Source of the DNA: Eledone cirrhosa
Lineage: Eukaryota
Direction of reading: 5' to 3'
DNA: 64,000 bases
Assembly: GCA_964016885.1 (NCBI GenBank)
Contig: OZ024742.1
Coordinates: 362,762,001 to 362,826,000 of the forward strand
In this document: positions 8,069 through 56,651 of the stretch, in pieces
Layout of the letters: every line of letters starts with the position of its first letter
Position numbering within the stretch: the first letter of the stretch is position 1
The notes under the pieces: model-generated
Database searches by the model: none
Told to the model about the DNA's origin: nothing
The model's input: the letters and a program-made list of their open reading frames with translations, nothing else
Program-made: the position numbers and the translations under genes

Positions 8069-8100
<32 letters not shown>

Positions 8101-9581: not shown

Positions 9582-9632
<51 letters not shown>

Positions 9633-9637
9633 ATGTG

Positions 9638-9689
<52 letters not shown>

Positions 9690-9963
9690 TGTGTAAGTGT
9701 GTATGTATATATATGTGTGTGTATGTATGTGTGGGTGTGTGTATATATATGTGTATGTATATGTGTGTATATATATATGTATGTACACATATATATATAT
9801 GTGTGTGTGTGTGTATGTATGTATGTGTGTATCTGGATGTATGTGTATGTATATATATGTGTGTGTGTGTATATATGTATATATATATGTGTGTGTATGT
9901 GCATATATATGTGTGTGTGTATGTGTGTATGTATATGTATATGTGTGTGTGTATGTATGTGTG

Positions 9964-10044
<81 letters not shown>

Positions 10045-11915: not shown

Positions 11916-14109
11916 GGGCCTGAAATTTACACCTACACCACGTAAACCAAACTTCCCCGAAATGAAGGATGACATCATGGAATACTGCCGAAAGCTGCGA
12001 CTAACGGAATTCTTCCACAACGACACCAACACTGAAGACGAATCACTGGTTAGAAATTAAAGCAATTTCTGCCCACAAAGGGGAAGAAATAAAGCACTGG
12101 ACACGTACTGCGAACACATCACCAACTTTCCCTATGAAAAAATTACAAATAAACACACGAAATCAAACCTATCTACACACGAATGGGAAGAATTATTCAC
12201 ACTTAGAAACAACCCTGAGATAACTATCAAAGAAGCCGATAAAGGCAGTACTGTTGTCATTATGAATACGGACTACTATAGGACCCTCGCACTTAACATT
12301 TTAGAAAACAACACATACTATGAAAAAACAGAAAACTACAAACACACCAAAACAATGGGGAACCTTTTGACCTTACTGAATAAATACCGCAACAGCTTAA
12401 CCACAAAAGAGTTTAACTATATAAGCCACTTCAAATGCAATACAAGCTCTTTTTACGGCTTACCGAAACTCCACAAATGTAAACCCATAAACGATGCATG
12501 TGACACCTCAACCAACAATTACATTGAACTAACACCACCAGAAGACCTAAAACTCAGGCCAATTATAGCAGGCCCTACATGTGAAACCCACAGACTTAGC
12601 AACTTTCTGGACATCCTACTGAAACCCTTTCTACAACATATACAGAGCTACATACGAGATGACCTTGACATGCTGAAACACCTCCCTAAAATAGTAAGTG
12701 CAAATACAATTCTTGTCTCCTTTGACGTAATAAACCTCTACACAAACATACCCCACAACTATGGAATAACAGCAGTCCAATACTGGCTTAACACACACCC
12801 ATCAGAAATACCGACACGCATCAACAAAGATTTTATCACTGACAGACTCCGCTTAATCCTACAAAATAACTACTTCACATTCAATGGTTCAACATACAGA
12901 CAAGTATCAGGTACGGCAATGGGCACGAAAGTAACACCCACATATGCCAACCTAGTCATGGGATTCCATGAACAACAAATATACAGTCAGTCCCTTCTCT
13001 TATTTGGAGACTCTTTCCACACACACCTCAAAGCCAATTGGAAAAGATATCTAGACGACTACTTTATCCTATGGCAAGAAGACATGAACTCACTTACTAT
13101 GTTTAAAAACATGATAAACAACATAGATAATAACATACAATTCACAATGGAATCCAATCCCAAGGAATTAGCCTTCTTGGATATTCTCATCTCTGTAATA
13201 GACGGGAAATTAGATACAGATATATTCTATAAACCCACAGATTCCAAGCAATACTTATTTTTCACATCAAGTCACCCAAAACATACAAAACTTAACATTC
13301 CTTACAATTTGGCCAAGCGAATATGTACCATAGTATCAGGTCCACCTAAACGGGAGCAAAGACTAAAGGAACTAAAAGACACCCTTATCTTAAGAGCCTT
13401 TCCACTTGAAATAATCAACAATGGAATAGACAGGGCAAAACACCTAAATCCCCATCAACTTAATAATCCAAAACAGAAAACCACACTCAACACCCTGCCA
13501 TATGTATCCACTTTCAACCCCAGAAATACCGAAATGTTTGATCACCTACACAAAAACCTCCCCATCCTACTTAAAGATGTAAAAATGAAGTCTATTCTTG
13601 AAACACACAAGATCCTTAAAAGTAAAAGACAACCCAAATCACTAAAACGCATTCTCACTGGACCAAATATACCCAAACCAATCCTCAACCCTACAGTTAC
13701 CAAATCTGGTAGAACAAACTGTGGAACGTGCCTCTACCTCACTGAAGGACAAAAATTTACATTTAAAGATGGCCAAACATTTACAGTAAAAAACAATTTC
13801 ACCTGCAACTCGGAGAACTTGATTTACGCAATAACTTGCGGTGGGTGCAAACACAACTACATAGGACAGACGGGCACCTCATTACGCAAAAGAATGACCA
13901 TCCACCGCCAACAAATCCGGGACGCTAGCACAAGAAAAATCCCCTTGAGCAGCCATATTGCGAACTGCGCAGGAATGACACTACCCAACTTTAAAATCTT
14001 CCCCTTCTACAAGTGCTCAGATTCGTTCACACAGCAACAAAGAATAAACAAAGAAAATCTATTCCTTAACAAATTTAAACCAAAACTAAACGGGTTATCA
14101 CCCCAATAG
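11812..14109 (+). CDS. PLE reverse transcriptase + GIY-YIG endonuclease (one in-frame TAA at 12058-12060)
   Basis: INLS..LSKGLKFTPT, ADKGSTVVIM, YGLPKLHK, LRPII, SFDVINLYTNIP, GTAMGT, RYLDD, FLD, YKPTD, CGTC linker, NLIYAITC..C..NYIGQT..LRKR...H, FKPKLN. Confidence 0.92.
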
Positions 14110-14497
14110 AATTGTCATAAAATATAAACACACATACGCACGGAGTGACAGATATATGTGTTTGTATGTGTGCATGTATATAATTATCACTACTTTTAAA
14201 GACCAGAGACCAATTCTGTAGAATCAGGTTTATTCGTTGACAGACCATGCCTTTGTGTGACCAACACATCCATGTTAAACCCTGCACATGCACACACATA
14301 TATCTATATATATATATATGCGCACACAGAATTCACCACTGTCGGTTGCGGGGCCCAATCTACATGAAGAACTCAATGTGATCAGAATGACTTGTATTTT
14401 AATTTCACTGCCCTAACTTATATTATGGAAACAATATATGTGTATGTATGTATATATATATATTTGGAGGCCATTTCTCTGTGTGTGGGTGTATGTA

Positions 14498-14533
<36 letters not shown>

Positions 14534-14664
14534 TGTGGATGTATGTATTGTGTGTGCGTGTGTGTGTGTGTGTGTGTATGTATGTGTGTATTTGGATGTA
14601 TGCGTATGTGTATATATATATATGTGTGTGTGTGTGTATATATATATATATGTGTGTGTATGTG

Positions 14665-14697
<33 letters not shown>

Positions 14698-14868
14698 TTG
14701 TGTGTATGTGTGTATGTATATATATGTGTGTGTATGTATGTGTGGGTGTGTGTATATATATGTGTATGTATATGTGTGTATATATATGTATGTACACATA
14801 TATATATATATGTGTGTGTGTGTGTATGTATGTATGTGTGTATCTGGATGTATGTGTATGTATATATA

Positions 14869-14903
<35 letters not shown>

Positions 14904-14970
14904 GTGTGTGTATGTGTATATATATGTGTGTGTATGTGTGTATGTATATGTATATGTGTGTGTGTATGTA

Positions 14971-15043
<73 letters not shown>

Positions 15044-15371
15044 ATGTATGTGTGGATGAAGGTATGTGTGTATATATAGGTGTAAGTGCACTAAATCCCT
15101 TTCTATCAATCTCCCCTCTCCTACCGAGCACAGGAAGATATATGTATGTATATTGCTTCCACCCCCTCACTGACCAGCAGCTGGCCATTGCTAAATTTGA
15201 CCTTTATAAAATAACCCACACCCCAAATAACTTCTCATTCACTACCAGAAGCAGTCAACGAGTTGCTACCAAGATGAAAACTACTATGAAATCCCACAAT
15301 GAATTCTATACTTGAATTTTTAAATCTGAAATTTTAACTCTTCTTATTATTAATTTTTCTTAATATTAATC

Positions 15372-15419
15372 AACATTTGAAAAGATGGCTTTTGCAGACC
15401 CATCGAAACCGGTCATTTT
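15372..15419 (+). ncRNA. minimal hammerhead ribozyme, U3-A8 variant (3' pLTR)
   Basis: TTGAAAA (15377-15383), GATGG/CCATC stem II, GAAA, palindromic CCGG, GTC site. The 5' pLTR copy at 10373-10420 has GAAA changed to CAAA. Confidence 0.7.
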
Positions 15420-15518
15420 TTATACACTTTATTATTTCCTTACCTTATAAAATTATATGTTTTTTCACAAAAAAGTATTCTGTCTCTTATATATTCCATG
15501 TGCCATTACCAACCTCAA

Positions 15519-15642
<124 letters not shown>

Positions 15643-16429
15643 GTATGTATAATGAAAGGGAAAAGAGTACTTAATACCGAAGTAGAGTTTTAATATTAAT
15701 TTTATTAAGGCTAAATAGAGTCTTGTTACTCTGGTGTTTCTTTACTTATCCCAAGATCCGCAGTGAAGGACCTCGAGCTGTTGTTTCGGTAATCTATTAA
15801 GAGAGGGAAACACTATGGAAGAGAAACACTGAAATGAAACCTGATGTTTATGTGATTACAGGTAATCATTCTTAGATTTGTCATCAGATAATAATCACTG
15901 AAACTTGTTATACAGGCGACTGTCAATATAACTCATCGTGTACAGATGTCTCTTTTACAATCTTCTCATCTGCAATTCTATTACAACAGCGGGGATAGAG
16001 TATTGCTCCGAACTTCTTGTAACGTATTGCTATATACGTGGTGTCACGTGAATTTGTGAGGTAACCTCGGGGTTGGTGTGTAGTATAGGTGGAAACAGTC
16101 ATGGTTCTCCAGTTACCTGTGCTAATAAGTCCTATGTTCGAGAGTTTTCGGTGGTTGGGGAGGGGATATTTGTTATGCCATCAAGGGTATGGACTTGCAG
16201 GAATAAGTGAGGTGATGTTGAGAGAGTTATCATATGACAAGATGAAACAATCGCACTCTCTTACACAACACACACACACACAAACACACGCGCGCGCGGA
16301 CACACACATATACATACATACATATATATATTGGCAACATGACCCTCCCAAAGTATAACAATATATATATAAAATCATCTCTAAAAATAGACCACACACC
16401 AACAACATAACATCTAACATCAAACGCAA

Positions 16430-16798
16430 CACTATAACGGCATCACAACCAACAATATAACGGCATCACAACCAGCAACATAACGGCATCACAACCAACA
16501 ATATAACGACATCACAACCAGCAATATAACGGTATCACAACCAGCAATATAACGGTATCACAACCAGCAATATAACGGCATCACAACCAGCAATATGACA
16601 TCATCACAACCACCAATATAACGGCATCACAACCAGTAACATAACGGGATCGCAACCAGCAATATAACGGCATCACAACCAGTAATATACCGGCATCACA
16701 GCCACCAATATAACGGCATCACAACCAGCAATATAACAGCATCACAACCAGCAATATAACGGCATCACAACCAGCAATATGACGGCATCACAACCAGC
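16430..16798. repeat. 23-bp minisatellite, ~16 copies
   Basis: Unit AATATAACGGCATCACAACCAGC. Confidence 0.9.
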
Positions 16799-21709: not shown

Positions 21710-21970
21710 ATACTTTGGGAGGGTCATGTTGCCAATAAGAAACACACGCACCAGTCGCTTTCATTTCAATTTATTATAATAAATTTATAATAAATTTATA
21801 AATTTATAAATTTCTGGTTGGTTGTTTGGTTCCACAACCAGATAGTTGTTTATATATTGTCATAGTTCCAATCTATTGGAATAGAATAGAAAGAAGATAG
21901 AATAGAAAGAACTAGGAACAAGGCTAATAGAATAAACTCATGGTATGATAGCAATAAATACCAGAGTGTA

Positions 21971-22504
21971 ATGTTCATCGATACAACCCCTAGAGGTGAA
22001 TTAGCTTACAAATTTAGAAGGGCCCTAAATAAACATAAACTCAATATTAAGATAGCAGAAAGACCAGGTACCTCCGTAAAAACACTTATTAGCAAGACAT
22101 ACTCTTTTCAAAGACCCTCATGTATAGATAAGAAATGTATAACCTGTAAAATAAGCCCCCATATTAACGGTAAAACTAGAAATGTAATGTATAGCATAAG
22201 ATGTACTGAAGGACATTGTAGAGACAAAACTATAGTGTACATAGGTGAGACAGCTCGTAGTGTAGGGGAACGGATAAATGAACACTGGCGAGACCTTCAA
22301 GATAGTAAAGAATCATCTGTACTCTACCAACATGCTAAAATAGAACACAAGGGTAAATTAGAGAACATAGAAATAAAAATAGAATCTACACACAGAAAAG
22401 ACGCAATGTTTAGACAAATTACAGAGGCAATAAACATAAAAGAATTACAACCAAAATTAAATAGAAAATATGAGTGGAACAGCAACATCACAACTTACAA
22501 TTAA
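21971..22504 (+). CDS. PLE GIY-YIG endonuclease domain (fragment)
   Basis: TPRGEL..IKIAERPG..CxxxxCxxC..NVMYSIRC..C..VYIGETARS..ERINEH..EAINI...PKLNRKYEW. Confidence 0.85.
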   Translation: MFIDTTPRGELAYKFRRALNKHKLNIKIAERPGTSVKTLISKTYSFQRPSCIDKKCITCKISPHINGKTRNVMYSIRCTEGHCRDKTIVYIGETARSVGERINEHWRDLQDSKESSVLYQHAKIEHKGKLENIEIKIESTHRKDAMFRQITEAINIKELQPKLNRKYEWNSNITTYN

Positions 22505-27304: not shown

Positions 27305-29677
27305 CTACCAGTATTCCTTAGTGCCATCTGTCTCAATACATTCTTCCTCGTTTGTTGTTAATTTTGTTTTCCGAAGTGCGTTCCAGATGGTTCTAGCTAT
27401 CCCATCGTGTCTCATGGGGAGGTAGTAGCGAGATGACATTATTTCGCAGCTGGCAACAATGTGGCTTACATCCTCGATCTTTGTTTTACATAGCCTACAT
27501 TTATTGTCAGCTGTTGGCCCTCCTCTTTTGTGCAGCAGATATTTGGTAGGGAGTTCTTGTTCCAGTATTGCATAGCGATATCCCTCAAGGTGTGATATCA
27601 TAAACTTGTCGGAACTCCATGCCAGGCCTTTTGAGTGGTTTATACCCTCTATGGTCTGTGTTTTACGTCTCAAGTATCCATGCACAACTTTTTCTGTAAA
27701 TTGGTCAATTTTTTTATCTTGTTTGAACATTGAATAGGATCTTCCGATTTCTCTGGGTGAGAGATTTATATCAGGCTTTATTCCATATCCCTCCTCCAGA
27801 TCAGTCGCTATTCTAATGATATTTTTTCGTTCATGCTCATAAACCTGGGCAAGATGGTTGCCAACCTTTTTCCTCTGTTGAAGGTGTTGCTTCAGTATTA
27901 CTATCCGGGTCTCATATATTGTTAATATTGATTTTAGACCCTGGCCACCTTCCTTGCGTGTGCGTGAGAAGTATAGCATATCCACATCACCATTGATGTT
28001 AAAGTTCCCAGTAACACTGAGAAGTTTGCGAGTTCTAACATCCAACTCACTTAGTTGTTGCAATGACCAGTTCAGCAGGCCAAATGTTGGCGTTTGAATT
28101 GGCACAGCATAAGTATTGGGGGCAACGTATTTGTTGTATGCTGACAGTTCTGATGACCATATTTTCTTTACTCTTCTGAGGTATTCAGTTCTGGTTCTCT
28201 CCTCATTTATGGGTCCATCATATCTGACATTCTTATCCTGTCCAAGATATCTGTTGTTGTCACCTGACTGTAGAGGTTGTATTGTCAGGCCGTTTATCTC
28301 TAGATTTCTAGAGGAGGGCACAGCTCTTCCACGTTTTACTGCCAAATATGCACACTTGGACTCACCAAATTTCATTTTGATGTCGGTTGAAAATTGTGTA
28401 ATGAGGTCCAATTGTTTCTTGATGTCATTGATATTTGGCCCATACAACTTCAGGTCATCAACAAAGAAATGATGGGAGATACTTCTGGACCCACTTCTTT
28501 GTCCACCTTGTTTCCTGAGTAGGTAAGATAGTGGATTCAGTGAGAGAACGAAGAGTAGCACTGACAAGCTATCACCCTGAAAGATGCCCTTCTGGTAATG
28601 TATCTTATCAGTCTTAACTTGCTCCTTCTCACCTCTAAGGATCAAATTGGTGTACCAGTTCTTGGTCAGGCGTTCAACAGCAGCTACCAATGGTTGTGGG
28701 ACTTTGGCTAACTGTAAAGCCTTAATAATCCACCCATGAGGTACACTATCAAATGCTTTTTGATAGTCCAGCCACACCACAGTCATGTTTCTGCGATTCT
28801 TTGTTGTTTTTTCCTGAATCATTTTGTTAGTTAGTAGGTGATCTATGCAACCCCATACATCCCTCTTTCCACCAGCTTGCTCAAGTGTTATGATGTTGTT
28901 GGTAGCACAGTGATCCTGTAAGAACAGATTAAGGCACCCAGTATATAATTTATACATGATGTTTTGGCAGGCTATTGGGCAGTAACTTTTAGCAAGGGTG
29001 GTTTGGCTATTTTGGGGAATGAGGAGAGTAGTGGCAGTTGATAACCATCTGGGCAGTTCTTGTGTGCCTTTAATGGTTTCTGTAAACAGCCGTATGAGAT
29101 CTTGCCGATAGAAAGTGAAATTCTTCAACCAGTATCCTGTAATGAGGTCTGGGCCTGGCGATTTCCTATTCGACATTTTCTGTAGAGCTGTTTCCAGTAT
29201 TGACCCATCTATGTCATATTGTTTTGTCTGGATATGTTGGCAGTAGTCCTGTTCCAGTTCTTTTAGCCAATTAGTTTGTCTGTTGAATCCGTCACCCGTT
29301 TCCCATACAGATCTCCAGTAGCTCTCAACCTGTTCTTTTGAAGGGGTGTCATTTACAGGGATTGAGCTTTTGCCACCGAAGCTGCAATAAACTGATTTAG
29401 GATCTCTAGCAAACAATGTATTTAGCACTTGTCGTTTATGTGCTGTTGACTTATATTTTAGTCTTTCTGTTGTAGCTGTGAGTTGTTGTTTCAACTGGTG
29501 TAATTTGGAGTTCAAAATTTTAAATTTTGTATCTCCAAATCGTCTCTCTAACTTTTTTCTTTTAGGTCTTCCTGGTGTCGTGTGAAGTTGGTCTCTATTT
29601 TGCATTTCATAACGACTGCGATTTGTGAGATACTTCGTCTCAGGGACAAAAGTTTGCTTTTTAAATTTCGCATCCAC
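27305..29677 (-). pseudogene. R4-clade reverse transcriptase and zinc knuckle
   Basis: KSPGPD, PIAC, WLDYQKAFDSVPH, GIFQGDSLS, FVDDLKLY, YLG, CRLC..E...HI...C, YYLPMRHD. Confidence 0.9.
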
Positions 29678-31278
29678 GCTGGTTCAGGCTTTCTGTTTGT
29701 ATCTTGATTGCCTGGTTTTAGATGTGTGTTATATGATAGCAATGTGACAGCTGAAACATATCACAAAATATTAAGCGTTTCATGTCGTTTCAGATAATTG
29801 CGTTTCAGATAACAGCCTTCAGATAATTGCCAGCTATTTCGTTCACCGCTTCCAATTCCAATTTAGTAGGTTCTTTACTGATTCTGGTGTTGTATGGTCT
29901 GTCACTCACATTAAAGCTGTGTATATTTTGAAACATATCGTTCCATATCACTTGTAAGGTGTCCACAAGTTTTTGGTGTTCTGTTTGTTCAGTAGAGTTA
30001 TGAAGTTCAGCCTCGTTGTTGATGTGGTGACAATTACTACTAGAGTTAGCTGACCTTTCTCGCTGTTCTTCAGTGGAAGTGGGATGGATTTCAGCAAAAT
30101 TGTTGGTGAGCTGTTCACTGTTAGATTTAGCTTGCCATTCTCTTTGTCTGTCAGTGGAGGTGGGGTGGTTGTCTACAAGGGCTGTATGTGTAACATCACT
30201 CAATTCCGTTAGATGTATCAATTTACATCTAATGATACGTTTTGCCTGTTCATTTAAATGCTTTGGAGAAAAGTCTAATTCTGGGTGTTTGGAGTTCCAT
30301 AAAGTTTTTAGCCTTTGCATAAAACCTAACTTTTGGGATTCAGATTGTTTGTATGCTTCATATAATTCTTTGTTAAGCTCATAGCTCCACTGTGTACAAC
30401 GGTTGTAGTTGCGATTTGGTCGAAGGAGACTTGTACTTTTTGCCATGATGAGTTCGTCTATTCACTAATATTTCGTATTTATTTTTCAATATAGTCGATG
30501 ATCATCTTTAAAAGTTTCGACAAAGTTCTGTCAGAATCAAATTTAAAGTTATTCACAGCTTGGGTAATATTTCTTTTCAGTTAGTTTTTAATTCTACAAC
30601 TGTGTTTTAAACGTTGTTCTTGAATCGTTTGAATCGAGAACAAAAAGAACCGTTACTTAGAATATTTCGTTATGAATGTAATATAATATAACAACGCTGT
30701 ATTTATATGTTAAAGTTTATGTATCATTCATATAAATAGGTGTTCTACAACTTATTCACAACATATTCACAGTTCAAACACTTATGTTTTTGTTTCTGAA
30801 TCGAAAACGTTACTTGTATATTTCTTTATAAATGTAATATAACTGTTTCTACGTTAGGCACAAGGCCAACAATTACCCAGTGTATTACTGGTACTTTATT
30901 TTATCGACCCCGTAAGGATGAAAGGCAAAGTTAACCTCGGCGGGATTTGAACTCATAAATGTAATATAACAACGTTGCGTTTATATGTTAAAGTGTATGT
31001 ATCGTTCATATATCATAAGTGTATGTATCGTTCATATAAATAGGTGTTTTACAACACACTTACAGTTCAAACACTTATGTAGAATTATTGTATGTAATCT
31101 TACCGCGTAATGTAGCTCAACTCTTTCCAATATATGGTATGTTGTCTTCATGTAAGCCGTAATTACACACGTCCGATGATCGGACACTGACCACAACGGT
31201 TGCCATTATGTATGTATGTATGTATGTATGTATGTATGTATGTATGTATGTATGTATGTATGTATGTATGTATGTATG

Positions 31279-38178: not shown

Positions 38179-38709
38179 GATTCGGTATTGTTCAGACCCG
38201 TTGCGGAATGGGCTCCGCTAGGTTTCCATGCCAGTATCCCACTATAGTGCCAAGGATTCGGTATTGTTCAGACCCGTTGCGGAATGGGCTCCGCTAGGTT
38301 TCCATGCCAGTATCCCACTATAGTGCCAAGGATTCGGTATTGTTCAGACCCGTTGCGGGATGGGCTCCGCTAGGTTTCCATGCCAGTATCCCACTATAGT
38401 GCCAAGGATTCGGTATTGTTCAGACCCGTTGCGGGATGGGCTCCGCTAGGTTTCCATGCCAGTATCCCACTATAGTGCCAAGGATTCGGTATTGTTCAGA
38501 CCCGTTGCGGGATGGGCTACGCTAGGTTTCCATGCCAGTATCCCACTATAGTGCCAAGGATTCGGTATTGTTCAGACTCGTTGCGGGATGGGCTCCACTA
38601 GGTTTCCATGCCAGTATCCCACTATAGTGCCAAGGATTCGGTTGTGTTCAGACTCGTCGCGGGATGGGCTCCACTAGGTTTCCATGCCAGTATCCCACTA
38701 TAGTGCCAA
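38179..38709. repeat. 76-bp minisatellite, 7 copies
   Basis: Unit GGATTCGGTATTGTTCAGACCCGTTGCGGGATGGGCTCCGCTAGGTTTCCATGCCAGTATCCCACTATAGTGCCAA, starting at 38254, 38330, 38406, 38482, 38558, 38634. Confidence 0.95.
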
Positions 38710-43125: not shown

Positions 43126-43185
<60 letters not shown>

Positions 43186-43186
<1 letters not shown>

Positions 43187-44024
43187 GTAGATAAATCTAC
43201 CAAGAGTTTACGGTAGTGTCCAATCCGTATGAAGAACTCAATGTATTCCGGACATCATGGAAAGAAGAGATGTAATGAAAATCCAATTTCGGTGAAAGAT
43301 AAACGGTATACAGAGTCAAGATAAAATATTAAACAAATAATGAACAAACAATTCCTTATATTAAACAAAAAAAGTTCACTATTTAACGATCGTTTCTAGG
43401 GTATATATGTGTTATAATTGGTATGCATATTTAACAGATCTATGTACAAAATTATACAAAATTATACAAATTATCAAGATTAAATATACATACCTAACTC
43501 ATATATACGCCGTCTTCAGAAATAATGAAGTATATTTATTGATAATAACAACAATTCAAAATATCAGTTCAAAATTGACCAATGAAAACACAAAGGGTTA
43601 AAAAGCAGTTTGGTGTGTGTATATACATGTAAAACCCTACACACATTTTACAATAATGTGTGTATAATTTGTATGTGCATACTAAAAAGATGGATGCAAA
43701 TAAAAAATTTCAAGGTTAATATCTCTGTAAGCTTAATGCGCTGATAAGATACGCAATGATACTTATGGAGTCAAGCATATAAATATATTTTTTTCATACT
43801 CACACATATCAGTATAATCACACATACATGTGCGTATATATATAAATATACACATAACCACGAACACACAAACACACACACTCCCCCACTCACATTTATA
43901 TATGTGGATATAAAATCATAAGCAAATAGAAATTAAGTCACTCACATAAACACACTGGTACACACATTTCAAGATCAAGATACAGAAATTAGGTGGGAGG
44001 GGGGGGGAGGGGTCAGTATTAGGT
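43186..44024 (-). mobile_element. extra inverted pLTR of the Naiad-type PLE carrying the longer 3' tail
   Basis: 43321-44024 matches 45436-46139. 43186-43320 is additional tail ending at (TA)n. Hammerhead at 43375-43529(-). Confidence 0.85.
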
Positions 44025-46412
44025 ATTAGGTATTTTACGTTTGGTGTTCAAACCCAACATGGTCAAGAGAAATACCAGTAAAATACTCGGGTAGAGATAC
44101 ACAACGTTCCCCTTCAATTAGAAATATTTTCCAAGATGGTAAAGGGTTGAGGATCGACAAAGTCGGTAGAGCGTCCGACAAAGATTTAGCAGTATTTGTT
44201 CCCAATCTTTACTTTCTGAGTTCAAATCCAACCTAGGTCAACTTTACTTCTCATCCTTCCAAGGTCTATAAAATAAAATAACCGTTAATTATTGGTGTCG
44301 AAATAATCAACTTTCCCTTCCTCCAATATTGAGTCCTTGGGCCTAATTTAGAAAACAAAATAAAAACATCAGAATGGCTAATTTAAAAGCCTGTATTCCA
44401 GCAACCCAGTGGGCTGTTTCATTCTTTCAAATTAAATCTGTCCTCACTAGACATACACACTTCGACTCACACACATATGTTTCCCTTTTTATTATATACA
44501 TATTCAAACACGCCTTTCACTACATAAACTTACATTCATGCACACACATACATCCCACTAAGCACACATACATACATCCCACTAAGCACACTTACTTTCA
44601 CGCCCACTCATGCATATAACATACACTTTTTCCTAGATATTTCACAACGCGCCCGCTCGAAATTTTAACGTATTTTCATTGCATTAAATCTGTAAAGATA
44701 TCATCCTCGGTCGTTCCTTTACGTCTCTCACAGAGATATTCCCTTGATAATGGGTTTTTAAATTTGCTAAGGTAAGAATCTATTTTTATCTTACCAATTT
44801 TAATTTTCTAGCGACAATTTTGAGGCGGAGAGAGTCGACTAAATCGACCCCAGGACATTACTGGTACTTTGTTTTATCAACCCCGCAAGGATAAAAGACA
44901 AAGCTAACCTCAGCAGGATTTTAACTAAGATCGTAAAGGGTCGTAACTCTATGTCATAAAGTATGTTGTCAGACGCCTTATCGATACTGCCAATCCATCG
45001 CACTCAAAAAACCTTTATTATATTAAATCATGTTGAAAGATTTTATTTAAAACGGTCATTTTAAAATGTGTAGTTTTGATTTATACAACAGAGACCTGTT
45101 TAAAACTTCATTTTTAGGCCATGCTGGAGCACTGCCAAGAATAAAAATTGTGTTTATAACGTCTGTTAGTTACGATACTGAAGATTTTATTGCACTGTTT
45201 TTGTTTTCATTTTTGTTTTTCTTATTTACTTCCAATGTTTATATACTCTTCACGGTTGACTGTTCATGGTTGGTTGTTTACTATGTGTAGTTCTAGAGGT
45301 GTATGTTATGGAAAGATTTATTTCCATTCTCCATTTGCCTCTTATCTTTTGGAAATATATATGTGTGTGTTCGTGTGTATGTATACATGCATGTATATAT
45401 ATATATATACATTGATATATATATATATATATATATAAAATATTAAACAAATAATGAACAAACAATTCCTTATATTAAACAAAAAAAGTTCACTATTTAA
45501 CGATCGTTTCTAGGGTATATATGTGTTATAATTGGTATGCATATTTAACAGATCTATGTACAAAATTATACAAAATTATACAAATTATCAAGATTAAATA
45601 TACATACCTAACTCATATATACGCCGTCTTCAGAAATAATGAAGTATATTTATTGATAATAACAACAATTCAAAATATCAGTTCAAAATTGACCAATGAA
45701 AACACAAAGGGTTAAAAAGCAGTTTGGTGTGTGTATATACATGTAAAACCCTACACACATTTTACAATAATGTGTGTATAATTTGTATGTGCATACTAAA
45801 AAGATGGATGCAAATAAAAAATTTCAAGGTTAATATCTCTGTAAGCTTAATGCGCTGATAAGATACGCAATGATACTTATGGAGTCAAGCATATAAATAT
45901 ATTTTTTTCATACTCACACATATCAGTATAATCACACATACATGTGCGTATATATATAAATATACACATAACCACGAACACACAAACACACACACTCCCC
46001 CACTCACATTTATATATGTGGATATAAAATCATAAGCAAATAGAAATTAAGTCACTCACATAAACACACTGGTACACACATTTCAAGATCAAGATACAGA
46101 AATTAGGTGGGAGGGGGGGGGGAGGGGTCAGTATTAGGTTGTCAGACCAGACAGCCTAATATAAATGTATCTATAAATTATGAAAAATAAAAAAATAAAA
46201 ACAATAAAATATATTACATATAATATAATGTACATACGCATACAGATATACATACACATACATACATGTACGCGCACATAGAGATATCTACACATACATA
46301 CATACACACATACCTATACTGTCATACACACACATACATTTACACGAACATACACATACACATATAAAAAGATAAAAATACAGACACACACACGCGCAAT
46401 ACATACACACAT

Positions 46413-46461
<49 letters not shown>

Positions 46462-46572
46462 TATACACACGCACATAGACTCATATATATATACACATAC
46501 ACATACATATACTTATACATAAACATATATATCCCACACTCATACCACCATGAGAACACATACAAACATCCA

Positions 46573-46615
<43 letters not shown>

Positions 46616-46832
46616 ACATACACACACGTACACATATATGCATATATACATACATATATACACACATACACATATATATATACACACACACATAAAATAC
46701 AGACATGCACATATATATATATATATATATATATATTTCATTACTCTTATATATACACATAGTATATATACATACACAACCTCACTTATACACATATACA
46801 CATAAGTTATATTACAATAATAATAAAGAATA

Positions 46833-46863
<31 letters not shown>

Positions 46864-47002
46864 TATACACACATATACACATATACATACACATACATAC
46901 ATATATATACATACATACACATACATACATACACCTAAATATAAACATATATAAATACACACATACGAATAAAGACATATATTCACACATAGACACCTAT
47001 AT

Positions 47003-47044
<42 letters not shown>

Positions 47045-47072
47045 ATATACACACACATACACATACATACAC

Positions 47073-47108
<36 letters not shown>

Positions 47109-47130
47109 GCACACACATACAGACACACAT

Positions 47131-47166
<36 letters not shown>

Positions 47167-48892
47167 GTGTATGTGAGTGTGCGCAAATACATACATATAT
47201 ATACATACACACATACAAACACACACAAACACATACAAATGCATACGTGCACACACACACACATATATCACATAGATACGAAGATAAACATATAAATAGA
47301 GAGACATACAAATATATACAGAACCCATATACACATACATACAAACACGCATATACATATATATACATATATACACACATATATATTCCTATATACAAGC
47401 ATACACATACACACACATATATACATATACATACACATATATATATCACACATTCACATACACGTACATATATAATATACATATATATACATATATATAC
47501 ATACATATGTATGTACAATCATATATACACACTCAATCTTACATTCATATTTACATGCTCATATATGTATTTTTATATTTAGAAATAAATACCAAAAAAA
47601 CTATATAGAACCCATCTACACATATATTCATACATATACACTTACAAAAACAGATGATAATAGTATGGGGGAAAGGGGGGGGTTTGGAGAAGGGGATCAA
47701 AGTAAATATATGTTTCAAGAAACCTATAATATTTTCCATATCTTAATTCAATGTATGTTCTTACATATTTTCAGTGCTAGGAAATACGAAATCTATGCAT
47801 CACAAAATAAAAAAGTATACCATTAATCATATGTCAACTAAACCAAAGATAGTCAACATATTGATTTCCAAGGTGTAAATTAGTTAGGTTTATAATATTT
47901 GAAGCAGAATTATGAAGTCAAACAGTAGTAGATTATTAATTACATTATAACTAAATTAAAGTTAATAACGTTATGGTATCAATATTAGGAGATGAATTTA
48001 GTAATAGGGAAAAGAAACCCAAATAAAAATAAAATAAAGTATTACATCGGTAGTAGCATATAAATTATATGTTAACTAAGTTAAAAATTATATATTTATT
48101 TCAATAGTATATGTTAATTAGTATATGTTAATTAGGTATACAATACATAAAGCAGATATTGTATTTCATCAATAGCATAATATAATTATATGCAAATAAA
48201 AATCAAAATTAATACGCATACACATACATATACATACACATACACATACATATACATATACATACACATATATATATATATATATACATATATATACACA
48301 TACATACATATATAGTCACATAAATATACATACAGATACACATACAATACATACATATACATATACATATAGATATACATATCTTTTTCAAAAAATTTGC
48401 ACAGAATATATTAACTAGGTATATATCCAAAAACACTTCCCATTCTATGATTACATGAAATTCTGCAATTCGTCTGTACAAGGATACTAATTTTAAGCAA
48501 ATTAAAATTAAAATTAAAGTTTTAGGTTGATTAAAGCTAAAACCAAATAATAAATATATTTCCAAAATGTATATTAATTAGGTCAATAATACTAAAAATT
48601 CTTTCTCCGTCATAGGATACATGATATTATTTTGTTATATTTTATCTGTAAAAGAATTATAATAAAAAAAATTATAATAAAAGGTTAAACTAAATTAAAA
48701 AATTATAATAAAAGGTTAAAATAAGTTAAAATTAATCTATAAATTAAATTACTGAATATATATTAGTAATATTTAAAGGTTTTTCAAAATTAATGATTAC
48801 ATAATATTTTCTCATCTGTAATAAAATATTAATTAAATTAAATTTATAGGTTAACTAACATTTAAATTAAATTAAATTCTAGAATAATGTTA

Positions 48893-49937
48893 TTAATTAG
48901 GTTTATAATATTTAAATGTTTTTTTTAGTTTATGATTACACGATATAATTAATTCCTGTCTTTTATTTAATAAGATATCCCTAGACTTCATTATTTCAAA
49001 TAGTTCTTGGGAACATAATCTACATTCCTTTCTATTATTTTGATAAGGGGTGGCTCTTTTGAGCACACTCCAGGTCAAATCATATTTTATATTTTTATTT
49101 TTATAACTATTGATTTTTTCTGCTAGAGATGTTGTATTAGCCAGTGCGGCATTTTTAAAGCTATGTTTGTGGGTATTATACCTTGTCTTAAAATTGTTAG
49201 AGGTAGCTCCTATATATGAGCAAATAGAATCTTTAGTTTTAACATTACATTTATAGACTATGTTGTTAACAAGACAATTCCCTTTTAATGGGCAGTTTGT
49301 TTTGTTTCTACAGTTACATCCTTTCGTTAATTCTGTATTTGAGGAGATATTATTGTTAATTTGATGTACTGGTGGTATACTTATAGTTTTCTTACATTTA
49401 TATGCATTATATGCACTTATATTTTGTTTTATGTTATTTGTTGTAGAATATGAGAATTTAACTGTAGACCTATTTAAGATTTGATGGTATTTGTGGTTTG
49501 GCGGGAAGTTTTTCTCAAGGATATAAAAAAATTTTTTAGCAATATTATCCTTAACTTGTAAATTAAAAGGAGCATTATACCAAGTAACCCGTCTATTACG
49601 GTTTCTATGTTGTTTATTATTTTTATTATTTTTATATGTTGTATCATGATTTTTACTAGGAGGAATAATGTTAATGATAACACCACAACTATTTTTAGTT
49701 ATATTTGTAGATTTAGGTGTTTTATCTTTTTTATTAGGAGTTTTATTATTAATATTTATTATAGTCTTATGATGAGTAGTTTTTTGAGGGTTACTATACT
49801 TTATATTAGAAGATTTAGTATTTTGGGGTATACTGTGGGTGGCATTTAGGTGTGTACTTTTCATTTGGTGTTTGTTGGTAATATTATGCTGTATGTTTTC
49901 AGTATTTTTAGTAGAAGTTATATACTCTAATCTATTT
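48893..49937 (-). pseudogene. inverted duplicate of Naiad-type linker + GIY-YIG
   Basis: Translation from NRLEYITS onward is identical to ORF 49839-51566. Confidence 0.92.
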
Positions 49938-51566
49938 GCTAAAAATAGATCTAATTTAACTTCGGATGACATTAACATTATTACACATGCTAGACAAACA
50001 CTTATTGAATTTCAGAATGAATACTGGACCAGAAACACTTATAGTAATCTTTTTGATATTACTATGGGTTCAAGCGATTCTGCCCAAATTACTGATCTTG
50101 TGGGCCTCTTTCTCCTTTTCAACATAAATGCCTCTTTTCCCCACCTCAAAGGTGGTTTATATCGTGATGACTGTCTTCTTCTTTCTAACAACCTTAGCCT
50201 TTCAGAAATCGAAAAAAACAAAAAGCATATTAGAACTTTCCTTAAAGACTATTATAATCTTAATATTACTTTTGAAAAAACAAGTAAAGTAGTAAATTTC
50301 CTAGATATAACTTTAGATTTAGCTACGGGTATATACCAACCTTACCATAAACCTAACCAAAACTTACATTACATACACTCACAATCTAATCACCCTAAAT
50401 CTATCCTTAAAAACCTTGCATATAATATATCACTTAGAATTTCTAACCTTTCTTCTAACCAAGATGTATTTGATAAAAATGCGACCTTTTATAATGAAGC
50501 TCTAGATAGAAGTGGCCACAAAAATAGATTAGAGTATATAACTTCTACTAAAAATACTGAAAACATACAGCATAATATTACCAACAAACACCAAATGAAA
50601 AGTACACACCTAAATGCCACCCACAGTATACCCCAAAATACTAAATCTTCTAATATAAAGTATAGTAACCCTCAAAAAACTACTCATCATAAGACTATAA
50701 TAAATATTAATAATAAAACTCCTAATAAAAAAGATAAAACACCTAAATCTACAAATATAACTAAAAATAGTTGTGGTGTTATCATTAACATTATTCCTCC
50801 TAGTAAAAATCATGATACAACATATAAAAATAATAAAAATAATAAACAACATAGAAACCGTAATAGACGGGTTACTTGGTATAATGCTCCTTTTAATTTA
50901 CAAGTTAAGGATAATATTGCTAAAAAATTTTTTTATATCCTTGAGAAAAACTTCCCGCCAAACCACAAATACCATCAAATCTTAAATAGGTCTACAGTTA
51001 AATTCTCATATTCTACAACAAATAACATAAAACAAAATATAAGTGCATATAATGCATATAAATGTAAGAAAACTATAAGTATACCACCAGTACATCAAAT
51101 TAACAATAATATCTCCTCAAATACAGAATTAACGAAAGGATGTAACTGTAGAAACAAAACAAACTGCCCATTAAAAGGGAATTGTCTTGTTAACAACATA
51201 GTCTATAAATGTAATGTTAAAACTAAAGATTCTATTTGCTCATATATAGGAGCTACCTCTAACAATTTTAAGACAAGGTATAATACCCACAAACATAGCT
51301 TTAAAAATGCCGCACTGGCTAATACAACATCTCTAGCAGAAAAAATCAATAGTTATAAAAATAAAAATATAAAATATGATTTGACCTGGAGTGTGCTCAA
51401 AAGAGCCACCCCTTATCAAAATAATAGAAAGGAATGTAGATTATGTTCCCAAGAACTATTTGAAATAATGAAGTCTAGGGATATCTTATTAAATAAAAGA
51501 CAGGAATTAATTATATCGTGTAATCATAAACTAAAAAAAACATTTAAATATTATAAACCTAATTAA
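49938..51566 (+). CDS. 5'-truncated Naiad-type PLE RT C-terminal half + GIY-YIG endonuclease
   Basis: FDITMGSSDSAQITDLVGL, GLYRDD, VNFLDITLDL, YHKPN..YIH..SNHP, WYNAPFN, CNCR..CPLKGNC, IVYKC..YIGAT..FKTRY..H..SF, CRLC..E, LLNKRQE..CNH. The listed start at 49839 lies within the inverted arm. Confidence 0.9.
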   Translation, partial: AKNRSNLTSDDINIITHARQTLIEFQNEYWTRNTYSNLFDITMGSSDSAQITDLVGLFLLFNINASFPHLKGGLYRDDCLLLSNNLSLSEIEKNKKHIRTFLKDYYNLNITFEKTSKVVNFLDITLDLATGIYQPYHKPNQNLHYIHSQSNHPKSILKNLAYNISLRISNLSSNQDVFDKNATFYNEALDRSGHKNRLEYITSTKNTENIQHNITNKHQMKSTHLNATHSIPQNTKSSNIKYSNPQKTTHHKTIININNKTPNKKDKTPKSTNITKNSCGVIINIIPPSKNHDTTYKNNKNNKQHRNRNRRVTWYNAPFNLQVKDNIAKKFFYILEKNFPPNHKYHQILNRSTVKFSYSTTNNIKQNISAYNAYKCKKTISIPPVHQINNNISSNTELTKGCNCRNKTNCPLKGNCLVNNIVYKCNVKTKDSICSYIGATSNNFKTRYNTHKHSFKNAALANTTSLAEKINSYKNKNIKYDLTWSVLKRATPYQNNRKECRLCSQELFEIMKSRDILLNKRQELIISCNHKLKKTFKYYKPN

Positions 51567-53286
51567 TAACATTATTCTAGAATTTAATTTAATTTAAATG
51601 TTAGTTAACCTATAAATTTAATTTAATTAATATTTTATTACAGATGAGAAAATATTATGTAATCATTAATTTTGAAAAACCTTTAAATATTACTAATATA
51701 TATTCAGTAATTTAATTTATAGATTAATTTTAACTTATTTTAACCTTTTATTATAATTTTTTAATTTAGTTTAACCTTTTATTATAATTTTTTTTATTAT
51801 AATTCTTTTACAGATAAAATATAACAAAATAATATCATGTATCCTATGACGGAGAAAGAATTTTTAGTATTATTGACCTAATTAATATACATTTTGGAAA
51901 TATATTTATTATTTGGTTTTAGCTTTAATCAACCTAAAACTTTAATTTTAATTTTAATTTGCTTAAAATTAGTATCCTTGTACAGACGAATTGCAGAATT
52001 TCATGTAATCATAGAATGGGAAGTGTTTTTGGATATATACCTAGTTAATATATTCTGTGCAAATTTTTTGAAAAAGATATGTATATCTATATGTATATGT
52101 ATATGTATGTATTGTATGTGTATCTGTATGTATATTTATGTGACTATATATGTATGTATGTGTATATATATGTATATATATATATATATATGTGTATGTA
52201 TATGTATATGTATGTGTATGTATATGTATGTGTATGCGTATTAATTTTGATTTTTATTTGCATATAATTATATTATGCTATTGATGAAATACAATATCTG
52301 CTTTATGTATTGTATACCTAATTAACATATACTAATTAACATATACTATTGAAATAAATATATAATTTTTAACTTAGTTAACATATAATTTATATGCTAC
52401 TACCGATGTAATACTTTATTTTATTTTTATTTGGGTTTCTTTTCCCTATTACTAAATTCATCTCCTAATATTGATACCATAACGTTATTAACTTTAATTT
52501 AGTTATAATGTAATTAATAATCTACTACTGTTTGACTTCATAATTCTGCTTCAAATATTATAAACCTAACTAATTTACACCTTGGAAATCAATATGTTGA
52601 CTATCTTTGGTTTAGTTGACATATGATTAATGGTATACTTTTTTATTTTGTGATGCATAGATTTCGTATTTCCTAGCACTGAAAATATGTAAGAACATAC
52701 ATTGAATTAAGATATGGAAAATATTATAGGTTTCTTGAAACATATATTTACTTTGATCCCCTTCTCCAAACCCCCCCCTTTCCCCCATACTATTATCATC
52801 TGTTTTTGTAAGTGTATATGTATGAATATATGTGTAGATGGGTTCTATATAGTTTTTTTGGTATTTATTTCTAAATATAAAAATACATATATGAGCATGT
52901 AAATATGAATGTAAGATTGAGTGTGTATATATGATTGTACATACATATGTATGTATATATATGTATATATATGTATATTATATATGTACGTGTATGTGAA
53001 TGTGTGATATATATATGTGTATGTATATGTATATATGTGTGTGTATGTGTATGCTTGTATATAGGAATATATATGTGTGTATATATGTATATATATGTAT
53101 ATGCGTGTTTGTATGTATGTGTATATGGGTTCTGTATATATTTGTATGTCTCTCTATTTATATGTTTATCTTCGTATCTATGTGATATATGTGTGTGTGT
53201 GTGCACGTATGCATTTGTATGTGTTTGTGTGTGTTTGTATGTGTGTATGTATATATATGTATGTATTTGCGCACACTCACATACAC

Positions 53287-53322
<36 letters not shown>

Positions 53323-53344
53323 ATGTGTGTCTGTATGTGTGTGC

Positions 53345-53380
<36 letters not shown>

Positions 53381-53408
53381 GTGTATGTATGTGTATGTGT
53401 GTGTATAT

Positions 53409-53450
<42 letters not shown>

Positions 53451-53589
53451 ATATAGGTGTCTATGTGTGAATATATGTCTTTATTCGTATGTGTGTATTT
53501 ATATATGTTTATATTTAGGTGTATGTATGTATGTGTATGTATGTATATATATGTATGTATGTGTATGTATATGTGTATATGTGTGTATA

Positions 53590-53620
<31 letters not shown>

Positions 53621-53837
53621 TATTCTTTATTATTATTGTAATATAACTTATGTGTATATGTGTATAAGTGAGGTTGTGTATGTATATATACTATGTGTAT
53701 ATATAAGAGTAATGAAATATATATATATATATATATATATATGTGCATGTCTGTATTTTATGTGTGTGTGTATATATATATGTGTATGTGTGTATATATG
53801 TATGTATATATGCATATATGTGTACGTGTGTGTATGT

Positions 53838-53882
<45 letters not shown>

Positions 53883-53993
53883 TGGATGTTTGTATGTGTT
53901 CTCATGGTGGTATGAGTGTGGGATATATATGTTTATGTATAAGTATATGTATGTGTATGTGTATATATATATGAGTCTATGTGCGTGTGTATA

Positions 53994-54042
<49 letters not shown>

Positions 54043-54810
54043 ATGTGTGTATGTATTGCGCGTGTGTGTGTCTGTATTTTTATCTTTTTATATGTGTATG
54101 TGTATGTTCGTGTAAATGTATGTGTGTGTATGACAGTATAGGTATGTGTGTATGTATGTATGTGTAGATATCTCTATGTGCGCGTACATGTATGTATGTG
54201 TATGTATATCTGTATGCGTATGTACATTATATTATATGTAATATATTTTATTGTTTTTATTTTTTTATTTTTCATAATTTATAGATACATTTATATTAGG
54301 CTGTCTGGTCTGACAACCTAATACTGACCCCTCCCCCCCCCTCCCACCTAATTTCTGTATCTTGATCTTGAAATGTGTGTACCAGTGTGTTTATGTGAGT
54401 GACTTAATTTCTATTTGCTTATGATTTTATATCCACATATATAAATGTGAGTGGGGGAGTGTGTGTGTTTGTGTGTTCGTGGTTATGTGTATATTTATAT
54501 ATATACGCACATGTATGTGTGATTATACTGATATGTGTGAGTATGAAAAAAATATATTTATATGCTTGACTCCATAAGTATCATTGCGTATCTTATCAGC
54601 GCATTAAGCTTACAGAGATATTAACCTTGAAATTTTTTATTTGCATCCATCTTTTTAGTATGCACATACAAATTATACACACATTATTGTAAAATGTGTG
54701 TAGGGTTTTACATGTATATACACACACCAAACTGCTTTTTAACCCTTTGTGTTTTCATTGGTCAATTTTGAACTGATATTTTGAATTGTTGTTATTATCA
54801 ATAAATATAC

Positions 54811-54965
54811 TTCATTATTTCTGAAGACGGCGTATATATGAGTTAGGTATGTATATTTAATCTTGATAATTTGTATAATTTTGTATAATTTTGTACATAG
54901 ATCTGTTAAATATGCATACCAATTATAACACATATATACCCTAGAAACGATCGTTAAATAGTGAA
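54811..54965 (+). ncRNA. type I hammerhead ribozyme with 116-nt stem II region (copies at 45489-45643 and 43375-43529, minus)
   Basis: Stem I TTCATTATTT/AAATAGTGAA, CTGAAGA, stem II including GGTATGTATATTTAA/TTAAATATGCATACC, GAAA, palindromic CGATCG, GTT site. Confidence 0.85.
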
Positions 54966-55010
54966 CTTTTTTTGTTTAATATAAGGAATTGTTTGTTCAT
55001 TATTTGTTTA

Positions 55011-55041
<31 letters not shown>

Positions 55042-56651
55042 CAATGTATATATATATATATACATGCATGTATACATACACACGAACACACACATATATA
55101 TTTCCAAAAGATAAGAGGCAAATGGAGAATGGAAATAAATCTTTCCATAACATACACCTCTAGAACTACACATAGTAAACAACCAACCATGAACAGTCAA
55201 CCGTGAAGAGTATATAAACATTGGAAGTAAATAAGAAAAACAAAAATGAAAACAAAAACAGTGCAATAAAATCTTCAGTATCGTAACTAACAGACGTTAT
55301 AAACACAATTTTTATTCTTGGCAGTGCTCCAGCATGGCCTAAAAATGAAGTTTTAAACAGGTCTCTGTTGTATAAATCAAAACTACACATTTTAAAATGA
55401 CCGTTTTAAATAAAATCTTTCAACATGATTTAATATAATAAAGGTTTTTTGAGTGCGATGGATTGGCAGTATCGATAAGGCGTCTGACAACATACTTTAT
55501 GACATAGAGTTACGACCCTTTACGATCTTAGTTAAAATCCTGCTGAGGTTAGCTTTGTCTTTTATCCTTGCGGGGTTGATAAAACAAAGTACCAGTAATG
55601 TCCTGGGGTCGATTTAGTCGACTCTCTCCGCCTCAAAATTGTCGCTAGAAAATTAAAATTGGTAAGATAAAAATAGATTCTTACCTTAGCAAATTTAAAA
55701 ACCCATTATCAAGGGAATATCTCTGTGAGAGACGTAAAGGAACGACCGAGGATGATATCTTTACAGATTTAATGCAATGAAAATACGTTAAAATTTCGAG
55801 CGGGCGCGTTGTGAAATATCTAGGAAAAAGTGTATGTTATATGCATGAGTGGGCGTGAAAGTAAGTGTGCTTAGTGGGATGTATGTATGTGTGCTTAGTG
55901 GGATGTATGTGTGTGCATGAATGTAAGTTTATGTAGTGAAAGGCGTGTTTGAATATGTATATAATAAAAAGGGAAACATATGTGTGTGAGTCGAAGTGTG
56001 TATGTCTAGTGAGGACAGATTTAATTTGAAAGAATGAAACAGCCCACTGGGTTGCTGGAATACAGGCTTTTAAATTAGCCATTCTGATGTTTTTATTTTG
56101 TTTTCTAAATTAGGCCCAAGGACTCAATATTGGAGGAAGGGAAAGTTGATTATTTCGACACCAATAATTAACGGTTATTTTATTTTATAGACCTTGGAAG
56201 GATGAGAAGTAAAGTTGACCTAGGTTGGATTTGAACTCAGAAAGTAAAGATTGGGAACAAATACTGCTAAATCTTTGTCGGACGCTCTACCGACTTTGTC
56301 GATCCTCAACCCTTTACCATCATGGAAAATATTTCTAATTGAAGGGGAACGTTGTGTATCTCTACCCGAGTATTTTACTGGTATTTCTCTTGACCATGTT
56401 GGGTTTGAACACCAAACGTAAAATACCATACCTTTGATGTCTTAAATTATTCTACCAATTCACCAACCTTTGACATCATGGGAATGAAATAATGAATAAA
56501 TTTAAGTCACTTCCAGTGTCTTCATTAATTAATGAAAATTATTAGAAATATGGCGGGAAAAAGGTTAACATTGATGTAAGACAACTTCTCACCTAGAAAT
56601 TCCTGCTCTATAAGCCTACTACTTAACCCCGGGCACATGATTGGAGTCCAG

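What the first reader, a model, noticed from the sequence alone, without database searches (positions are those of the whole stretch)
43186..56427. 12.4-kb palindrome whose inverted arm copies the PLE, its (TA)n junction and 1.4 kb of apparent host flank: evidence for snap-back, DNA-templated synthesis during PLE integration
Seen: the left arm (44029-49937) is the reverse complement of 50522-56427. It includes the element's exact 3' break (45437 vs 55018), the (TA)n tract, and 55040-56427, which is SINE-containing ordinary DNA that continues to the right with no tail or TA junction. The turn-around has microhomology (AAAAATAGAT at 49940 and 50520). A separate pLTR with a longer 3' tail (43186-44024) joins the left (TA)n. 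Known: PLEs often carry inverted pLTRs, and to my knowledge the mechanism is unsettled. Inference: first-strand cDNA folded back on itself, was extended through the element into target DNA, and was then joined to a second cDNA primed from the other end of the break.
Basis: partly seen in the sequence, partly recalled or inferred. Interest (0 to 1): 0.85.

Follow-up and report, generated by a model that had tools for sequence, protein, structure and literature searches.

The report
Penelope insertion copied back into flank
A young Penelope-type jumping gene sits in a 12.4-kb mirror repeat that also duplicates 1.4 kb of neighbouring host DNA, likely because one of its two new DNA strands folded back and was copied through itself during insertion, a rare accident known in similar form from human LINE-1 and R2 elements.

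Summary
The palindrome is real: 44029-49937 is the reverse complement of 50522-56427 (1 substitution, 4 repeat-length indels). The copied 1.39-kb flank was found only at these two arms. The element is a young, high-copy, Hydra-like PLE (6198-bp unit). Its insertions usually pair two fixed 3' ends 135 nt apart, head to head (45 of 60 sampled). In 19 of those 45 neither arm can be a copy of the other, so ordinary inverted ends come from two RNA-primed cDNAs, not from snap-back. Here 43186 is the long end and 55019 the short end of one such event. The extra inner arm must be a DNA copy, and the turn has an 8-bp hairpin (0.4% in a null). Best model: fold-back of the right cDNA, fill-in into target DNA, end-joining to the left cDNA (0.72). 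It is rare: 0 of 60 fetched insertions and 0 of 100 listed short ends show it. Independent reads did not confirm the junctions. Analogues are published for R2 and L1, and this scan noted similar PLE cases on other DNA, one in this genome.

The parts
43128..43184 (.). Left (AT)n target tract
43186..44024 (-). Left cDNA arm: element unit 6198 (long 3' end, with the 135-nt tail) to 5359; includes a hammerhead copy
   Evidence: identical to 54316-55019 over 704 nt
44018..44031 (.). Junction 1: ATTAGGT tandem duplication and 3-4 bp microhomology joining the left cDNA end to the flank copy
44029..45414 (-). Inverted copy of host flank 55042-56427 (contains old repeat fragments)
45415..45434 (.). Copied (TA)n junction, one unit shorter than the original
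45435..49937 (-). Inverted copy of the element, unit 6063 to 1552
49930..49950 (.). Junction 2 (turn): 5-bp overlap TATTT, 8-bp hairpin with 5-nt loop, 10-bp direct repeat of 50520-50529
49933..55019 (+). Right cDNA arm: 5'-truncated PLE, unit 963 to 6063 (short 3' end); 49938-50521 is the unpaired spacer
49933..51566 (+). C-terminal about 545 aa of the 814-aa RT + GIY-YIG ORF (YRDD; CxCx5C linker; VY..YIG); open
54813..54965 (+). Predicted type I hammerhead ribozyme with long stem II; predicted cut after 54955 (unit 5999)
   Evidence: motif search and fold; not found by Rfam
55020..55041 (.). Right (TA)n target tract
55042..56427 (+). Host flank in its native place; continues unbroken past 56427 in another data set

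Best explanation
This is one insertion of a young Hydra-like Penelope element in which, most likely during integration, the right-hand cDNA folded back on itself and was extended by DNA-templated synthesis through the element and 1.39 kb into target DNA before being end-joined to the left-hand cDNA. Shown: the mirror structure, the two family-standard outer ends, the flank found only here, the junction sequences. Inferred steps: (1) the endonuclease cuts both strands of a (TA)n tract and both 3' ends prime reverse transcription, one at unit 6063 (right), one at unit 6198 (left); (2) the right cDNA stops at unit 963, its last 5 nt pair 5 nt away, gain 3 nt, and the 8-nt end slips to the direct repeat 580 nt further on; (3) a host polymerase (or the RT) fills in along the single-stranded cDNA, across the primer junction and along resected or displaced flank to about 56430; (4) that end, freed by unwinding or by replication and breakage of a hairpin-capped end, is joined to the left cDNA end by microhomology-mediated end joining with a short templated duplication.
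For: RNA of a donor cannot easily supply the flank: 55090-56433 matches at about 100% only at the two arms; all other long hits are 69-87% old repeats (40 of 11,404 candidates scored, best first). The flank runs on unbroken past 56427 in three contig sets of one sample. The outer ends are the standard pair: 45 of 60 sampled short ends have a head-to-head long end within 7 kb, 7 more have an inverted arm leaving the fetched stretch; 12 of 15 earlier fetched copies likewise. Left unit and right arm have 0 mismatches over 704 nt, whereas 1 of 65 other full-length hits has 0 and 8 of 65 have at most 1: one event. The arms have no substitution in the 4.5 kb of element, while the nearest of 26 other copies has 5 in 2.3 kb. 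Turn hairpin of 8 bp: 24 of 5,876 simulated junctions with at least 5 bp microhomology reach it (0.4%). Ordinary centres of the family show the same kind of short microhomology and local templated insertion (L139, L146, L165, L169), and L159 has an 11-bp fold-back of its left flank. Literature: a PLE protein cleaves and extends both strands and starts RT at two sites that define the tail (PMC11167929); cDNA snap-back precedes 5' junction formation in R2 insertions (PMC11371274).
Against: No independent read or contig showed either junction, and the empty allele was not recovered. No second case in this family: 0 of 60 fetched, 0 of the first 100 of 520 short ends, 0 of the first 100 of 4,235 long ends. 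Timing has low power: 0 of 704 (left vs right) against 1 of 5,909 (inner vs right) does not exclude a later event. At the single substitution the other sample agrees with the inverted copy and not with the native-position arm, which needs a later mutation or a consensus error in the right arm. The polymerase and the way the hairpin was opened are not identifiable from sequence.
Confidence: 0.72

Rival explanations
1. A normal head-to-head insertion formed first; later a double-strand break or stalled fork inside it was repaired by fold-back priming (host polymerase delta type), producing the inverted duplication independently of retrotransposition.
For: Break-induced fold-back inverted duplication is established (PMC10622511, abstract). 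The junction features are generic for end joining. Identity between arms cannot separate the two dates. An earlier scan note (e1-9208303) preferred this reading for another locus.
Against: Needs a second rare event in 5 kb of very young DNA, whereas integration itself supplies two free ends with long single-stranded 3' tails; left and right arms are still identical over 704 nt; both junctions resemble the family's ordinary centres.
Confidence: 0.13
2. During integration the left cDNA end, not the right one, did the copying: it invaded the right flank near 56430, copied leftwards through the (TA)n and the finished second strand of the element, and then annealed to the right cDNA end (template switching without self-priming).
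For: Gives the same final sequence; explains the 5-bp overlap at the turn and the templated duplication at junction 1.
Against: Leaves the 8-bp hairpin and 10-bp direct repeat at the turn to chance (0.4%); needs second-strand synthesis finished on an end that was not yet joined.
Confidence: 0.06
3. Assembly or read artefact (fold-back chimera, or a graph node walked twice).
For: No independent junction evidence; palindromes trouble this assembly (N runs in L137, L161, L172); the private base sits in the native-position arm.
Against: Needs two separate false junctions, both with repair-type microhomology, and a left end that happens to be the family's correct partner end with a matching haplotype; the arms differ at five places; 584-bp spacer; no gap in the window.
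Confidence: 0.06
4. The inner arm is RNA-templated: a 3' transduction from an unseen donor, or a read-through transcript of an earlier insertion at this site captured by RT template jumping in a second event.
For: PLEs can capture host DNA downstream (PMC3846280 passages); RT can prime weakly from RNA 3' ends (PMC11167929); local pre-mRNA co-insertion is reported once for L1 (PMC10191854).
Against: No donor with this flank in the assembly; the flank is native on the right; no (TA)n or fixed RT start at 56427; needs two events at one site with identical haplotype.
Confidence: 0.03

Closest known systems
Head-to-head PLE insertions with inverted 5'-truncated copy and one-sided tail (PMC3846280, PMC8557442, PMC11167929)
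   Same: Inverted arms, two fixed 3' ends, tail on one side only, (TA)n targets, tandem units, hammerhead near the end.
   Different: Tail is 135 nt, not 30-40; a third, inner arm repeats the short end, its (TA)n and 1.39 kb of host flank, which I did not find described for PLEs in the passages read or in searches.
R2 snap-back 5' junctions (PMC11371274, PMC11331408)
   Same: cDNA 3' end primes DNA-templated synthesis on its own cDNA or nearby target DNA before the 5' junction forms.
   Different: Seen in short reads of engineered insertions in human cells; here 5.9 kb long, crossing the primer junction, germline, and joined to a second cDNA rather than to upstream target DNA.
L1-associated fold-back inversions and inverted duplications (PMC10191854; bioRxiv 10.1101/2024.12.14.628481)
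   Same: [quoted passage not shown]
   Different: The local L1 duplications are on the reciprocal (upstream) end and 52-220 bp in PMC10191854; primary-end fold-backs there are chromosome-scale replication/fusion products. Here the primary end's cDNA and downstream flank are duplicated locally and the locus is healed.
Hydra clade of C-terminal-EN PLEs (PMC8557442 section 11)
   Same: DKT, RWR (for RWK), CxCx5C linker, CxxC and CxH near the end, hammerhead, (TA)n target.
   Different: Unit is 6.2 kb with a 3.5-kb microsatellite-rich 3' part, against generally under 3 kb; no tree was built.
Break-induced fold-back inverted duplication in yeast (PMC10622511)
   Same: Short-stem fold-back priming and long fill-in.
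   Different: No retroelement involved; resolved through dicentric breakage.

Membership tests
EN+ Penelope-like element | Single ORF with RT and C-terminal GIY-YIG endonuclease | tested here: met
   814-aa ORF in an intact genomic copy with YRDD and VY..YIG motifs (motif names recalled); Atlas neighbours at 0.96-0.99 include clusters with GIY-YIG and RVT_1 on 18-50% of members. Pfam and PDB gave no significant hit.
EN+ Penelope-like element | Tandem/partial-tandem and inverted arrangement with one-sided tail | tested here: met
   tandem units up to three full copies; 45 of 60 head-to-head with ends 6198 and 6063.
EN+ Penelope-like element | Hammerhead ribozyme in the pLTR | tested here: met
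   Core motifs and fold at 54813-54965; predicted only, Rfam did not report it.
Hydra clade | DKT for DKG, RWK motif, CxCx5C linker, CxxC and CxH near the EN end | tested here: met
   HSDKTG, VRWRAY (R for K), CNCRNKTNC, CRLC, CNH in the ORF against the description.
Hydra clade | No CCHH motif in the endonuclease | tested here: inconclusive
   Two cysteines lie between VY and YIG but 8 residues apart; not aligned to references.
Hydra clade | Insertion into (TA)n | tested here: met
   520 and 4,235 exact end+TA matches; flanks.
Hydra clade | Placement in the clade by RT/EN phylogeny | not tested
   No reference proteins were fetched.
cDNA snap-back junction (R2 definition) | Sequence next to the cDNA 5' junction is the reverse complement of the cDNA or nearby target DNA | tested here: met
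cDNA snap-back junction (R2 definition) | Formed before the 5' junction, in the same insertion event | tested here: inconclusive
   Identity of arms fits one event but cannot exclude a later one; no population alleles.
3' transduction | Donor copy elsewhere followed by the same unique DNA | tested here: not met
   only the two arms match at about 100%.

The most novel reading that the evidence does not exclude
Fold-back of a cDNA 3' end is a regular route of second-strand synthesis in twin-primed PLE insertions: normally the sense copy anneals to the partner cDNA and leaves only a symmetric centre, and this locus is the rare overshoot that exposes it. Symmetric centres away from the common stop (unit 1082/1082, 5781/5781, 5878/5878, 671/676) would be its usual trace; both cDNAs ending at one RNA 5' end explains them equally well.
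Probability: 0.2. Interest if true: 0.75.

Novelty: new variant of a known kind. Interest (0 to 1): 0.45.

Why it matters
How PLEs make their inverted ends and second strand is open (PMC8557442, PMC11167929). This locus and its family separate two routes: ordinary inverted ends need two RNA-primed cDNAs, while a flank-containing arm needs DNA-templated fold-back. It implies a free double-strand break with long single-stranded cDNA tails during PLE integration and shows that such a family can leave kilobase germline inverted duplications of host DNA. With thousands of young copies, the genome is a ready test set. As a single rare accident with published R2 and L1 analogues it does not by itself change the model.

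Tried and rejected
Sequencing runs: only three contig sets of one sample hold the flank (0.60-0.67 of words); RAD-seq runs X4 and X5 gave no unique coverage. Searches showed no junction at 44029/56427 and the contigs stop in the (TA)n before the element end; contigs cannot show absence, so this is no test either way. Contig depth was 8.5-8.8 inside the duplicated flank and about 3.9-4.8 just outside it, a weak hint that I do not count, since the tool states depth is no copy number and the sample may be the assembled one. Close pairs of ends were fetched as candidate second cases (two short-end pairs, six long-end pairs): all were separate or nested insertions or another element. A genome-wide count of short-end/short-end palindromes could not be obtained; 420 of 520 short ends and 4,135 of 4,235 long ends were not examined. 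The 170-bp inverted match around C2:109.0 Mb lies 3 kb from the element and has mismatches: a dispersed repeat. Rfam gave only microsatellite-driven miRNA noise below gathering scores. Pfam and PDB did not recognise the ORF. The 592-aa ORF starts in the inverted arm by chance read-through; its first 48 residues are not part of the element protein. Simple snap-back as the source of all inverted arms was rejected (19 of 45 incompatible). Paper searches for a PLE precedent found none; one search returned nothing; subscription papers are not covered and the supplements of the bioRxiv L1 preprint were not seen.
Full report
Observation. Self-comparison of the window and an exact alignment show 44029-49937 as the reverse complement of 50522-56427, with one substitution and four repeat-length indels, around a 584-bp spacer. 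The inner arm includes the element's 3' break, the (TA)n and 1.39 kb of flank. 43186-44024 is a further inverted element end, identical to the right arm over the shared 704 nt. The window has no N and 33.7% GC; the genome is 3.0 Gb.

The element. A 1-kb ORF probe found 2,042 candidates; the 40 scored were all about 99-100% identical. An intact tandem copy on C1 gives a 6198-bp unit with an 814-aa ORF. Its motifs fit the Hydra clade as described in PMC8557442 section 11: DKT, RWR, CxCx5C, CxxC, CxH, (TA)n targets; no tree was built. Pfam and PDB do not recognise it; Atlas neighbours carry GIY-YIG or RVT_1 on part of their members. A predicted hammerhead lies at 54813-54965 with its cut after unit 5999.

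Family architecture. Exact end-plus-TA patterns give 4,235 long ends (unit 6198) and 520 short ends (unit 6063). Of 15 copies first fetched, 12 were head-to-head with one end of each kind (one short end at 6058). I then fetched 10 kb around 60 of the first 100 listed short ends, in list order, leaving out the first and those already held: 45 show the long end as head-to-head partner, 7 an inverted arm that leaves the stretch, 3 no inverted element arm, 5 unresolved. In 19 of the 45 the short-end arm reaches further 5' than the long-end arm by more than 20 nt, so it cannot be a copy of it, and the long-end arm holds 135 nt that the other lacks; both arms must come from RNA. This agrees with PMC11167929 (parts 1-2 of 4 read): both strands are cut and extended, and two RT start sites define the tail. 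In the window 43186 is the long end and 55019 the short end; their shared 704 nt have 0 mismatches, as in only 1 of 65 other full-length hits. They are the two ends of one insertion.

The extra arm. It repeats the short end with its (TA)n and flank. The flank matches at about 100% only at the two arms; other long hits are old repeats (40 of 11,404 candidates scored). In another data set contigs of 561 and 818 bases cross 56427 unbroken, so the right-hand copy is native. A DNA template at this site is therefore the simplest source. At the turn the overlap is 5 bp; the cDNA end can pair 5 nt away and, after 3 added bases, has an 8-bp stem whose 3' half matches the direct repeat at 50522. Of 5,876 simulated junctions with at least 5 bp of microhomology in the ORF region, 24 reach such a stem. 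That favours self-priming by the right cDNA over copying from the left. Junction 1 has a 7-bp tandem duplication and 3-4 bp microhomology, like the templated insertions at ordinary centres.

Frequency. No second case: none of 60 fetched insertions has downstream flank (28 bp or more, not microsatellite) repeated as part of an upstream arm (four loci gave hits, read as dispersed repeats or a neighbouring element); no minus/plus pair lies within 30 kb among the first 100 short ends (read by eye); the one such pair among the first 100 long ends was two insertions. One insertion has an 11-bp fold-back of the left flank (L159). Most ends were not examined.

Against. Neither junction was seen in independent data, and the empty allele was not recovered; contigs cannot show absence. 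At the one substitution the other sample agrees with the inverted copy, so the native-position base is a later change or an error. Identity between arms is too high to order insertion and duplication.

Known analogues. Passages read: R2 snap-back junctions (PMC11371274; PMC11331408); short fold-back inversions upstream of somatic L1 insertions (PMC10191854); inverted duplications and primary-end fold-backs from L1-induced breaks (bioRxiv 10.1101/2024.12.14.628481, passages and section 10); self-priming proposed for PLE inverted junctions (PMC3846280); retrozyme preprint passages (little bearing); yeast fold-back mechanism (PMC10622511, abstract only). Searches found no PLE report of flank read-through. 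Earlier scan notes describe similar PLE cases in this and other genomes; they are unchecked leads and gave me the two R2 papers. The label of end joining with templated insertion as polymerase-theta-like is recalled knowledge.

Verdict. Real feature at sequence level; most likely integration-coupled fold-back in a twin-primed insertion (0.72); rivals are later repair (0.13), left-end template switch (0.06), artefact (0.06), RNA template (0.03). New variant of a known kind; interest 0.45.

Noticed in passing
window 6970-15630: A second, older palindrome (95-97% arms) from a different PLE family with a 682-aa RT/GIY-YIG ORF (12061-14109) and a 408-aa upstream ORF; three-part arrangement with an inner inverted piece, no host flank copied.
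   Followed up: partly
element unit 5999-6198; G000 C3:197.976 Mb, C1:88.74 Mb, C1:90.91 Mb, L174: Both RT starts lie 64 and 199 nt 3' of the predicted ribozyme cut, several arms stop at unit 5999-6001, and some insertions hold up to three full tandem units (C2:170.42 Mb): fits circular or multimeric RNA templates.
   Followed up: partly
element unit 5856-5861 (window about 54813): Strong recurrent stop at the 5' edge of the hammerhead stem I; about half of the sampled short-end arms begin there, which suggests a common RNA 5' end or RT stop.
   Followed up: partly
L136:2092-2100; L147:6697-6700; L183:6769-6774; G000 C7:31.870 Mb: Nearly perfectly symmetric centres at positions away from the common stop; unexplained.
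   Followed up: partly
L159:1099-1141: 11-bp inverted copy of the left flank across a (TA)n at the 5' junction of a single-armed copy, like L1 reciprocal-end fold-backs.
   Followed up: yes
L146:6323-7019: Three-part solo insertion (long arm, 8-nt snap-back, extra 149-nt inverted piece, short arm): a possible small version of the window's structure that stops before the flank.
   Followed up: partly
G000 C1:90.88 Mb and others: A subfamily shares the ORF and ends but has a different 3' non-coding part after about unit 2790.
   Followed up: no
window 27305-30461 (-): Non-LTR retrotransposon remnant, 792-aa frame with RVT_1 and zf-RVT hits.
   Followed up: no
window 38179-38709 and 16418-16798: Tandem arrays: 7 copies of 76 bp at 98% and 16.6 copies of 23 bp.
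   Followed up: no
window 21890-22504 (-): 204-aa frame resembling a GIY-YIG end of another PLE (by eye).
   Followed up: no
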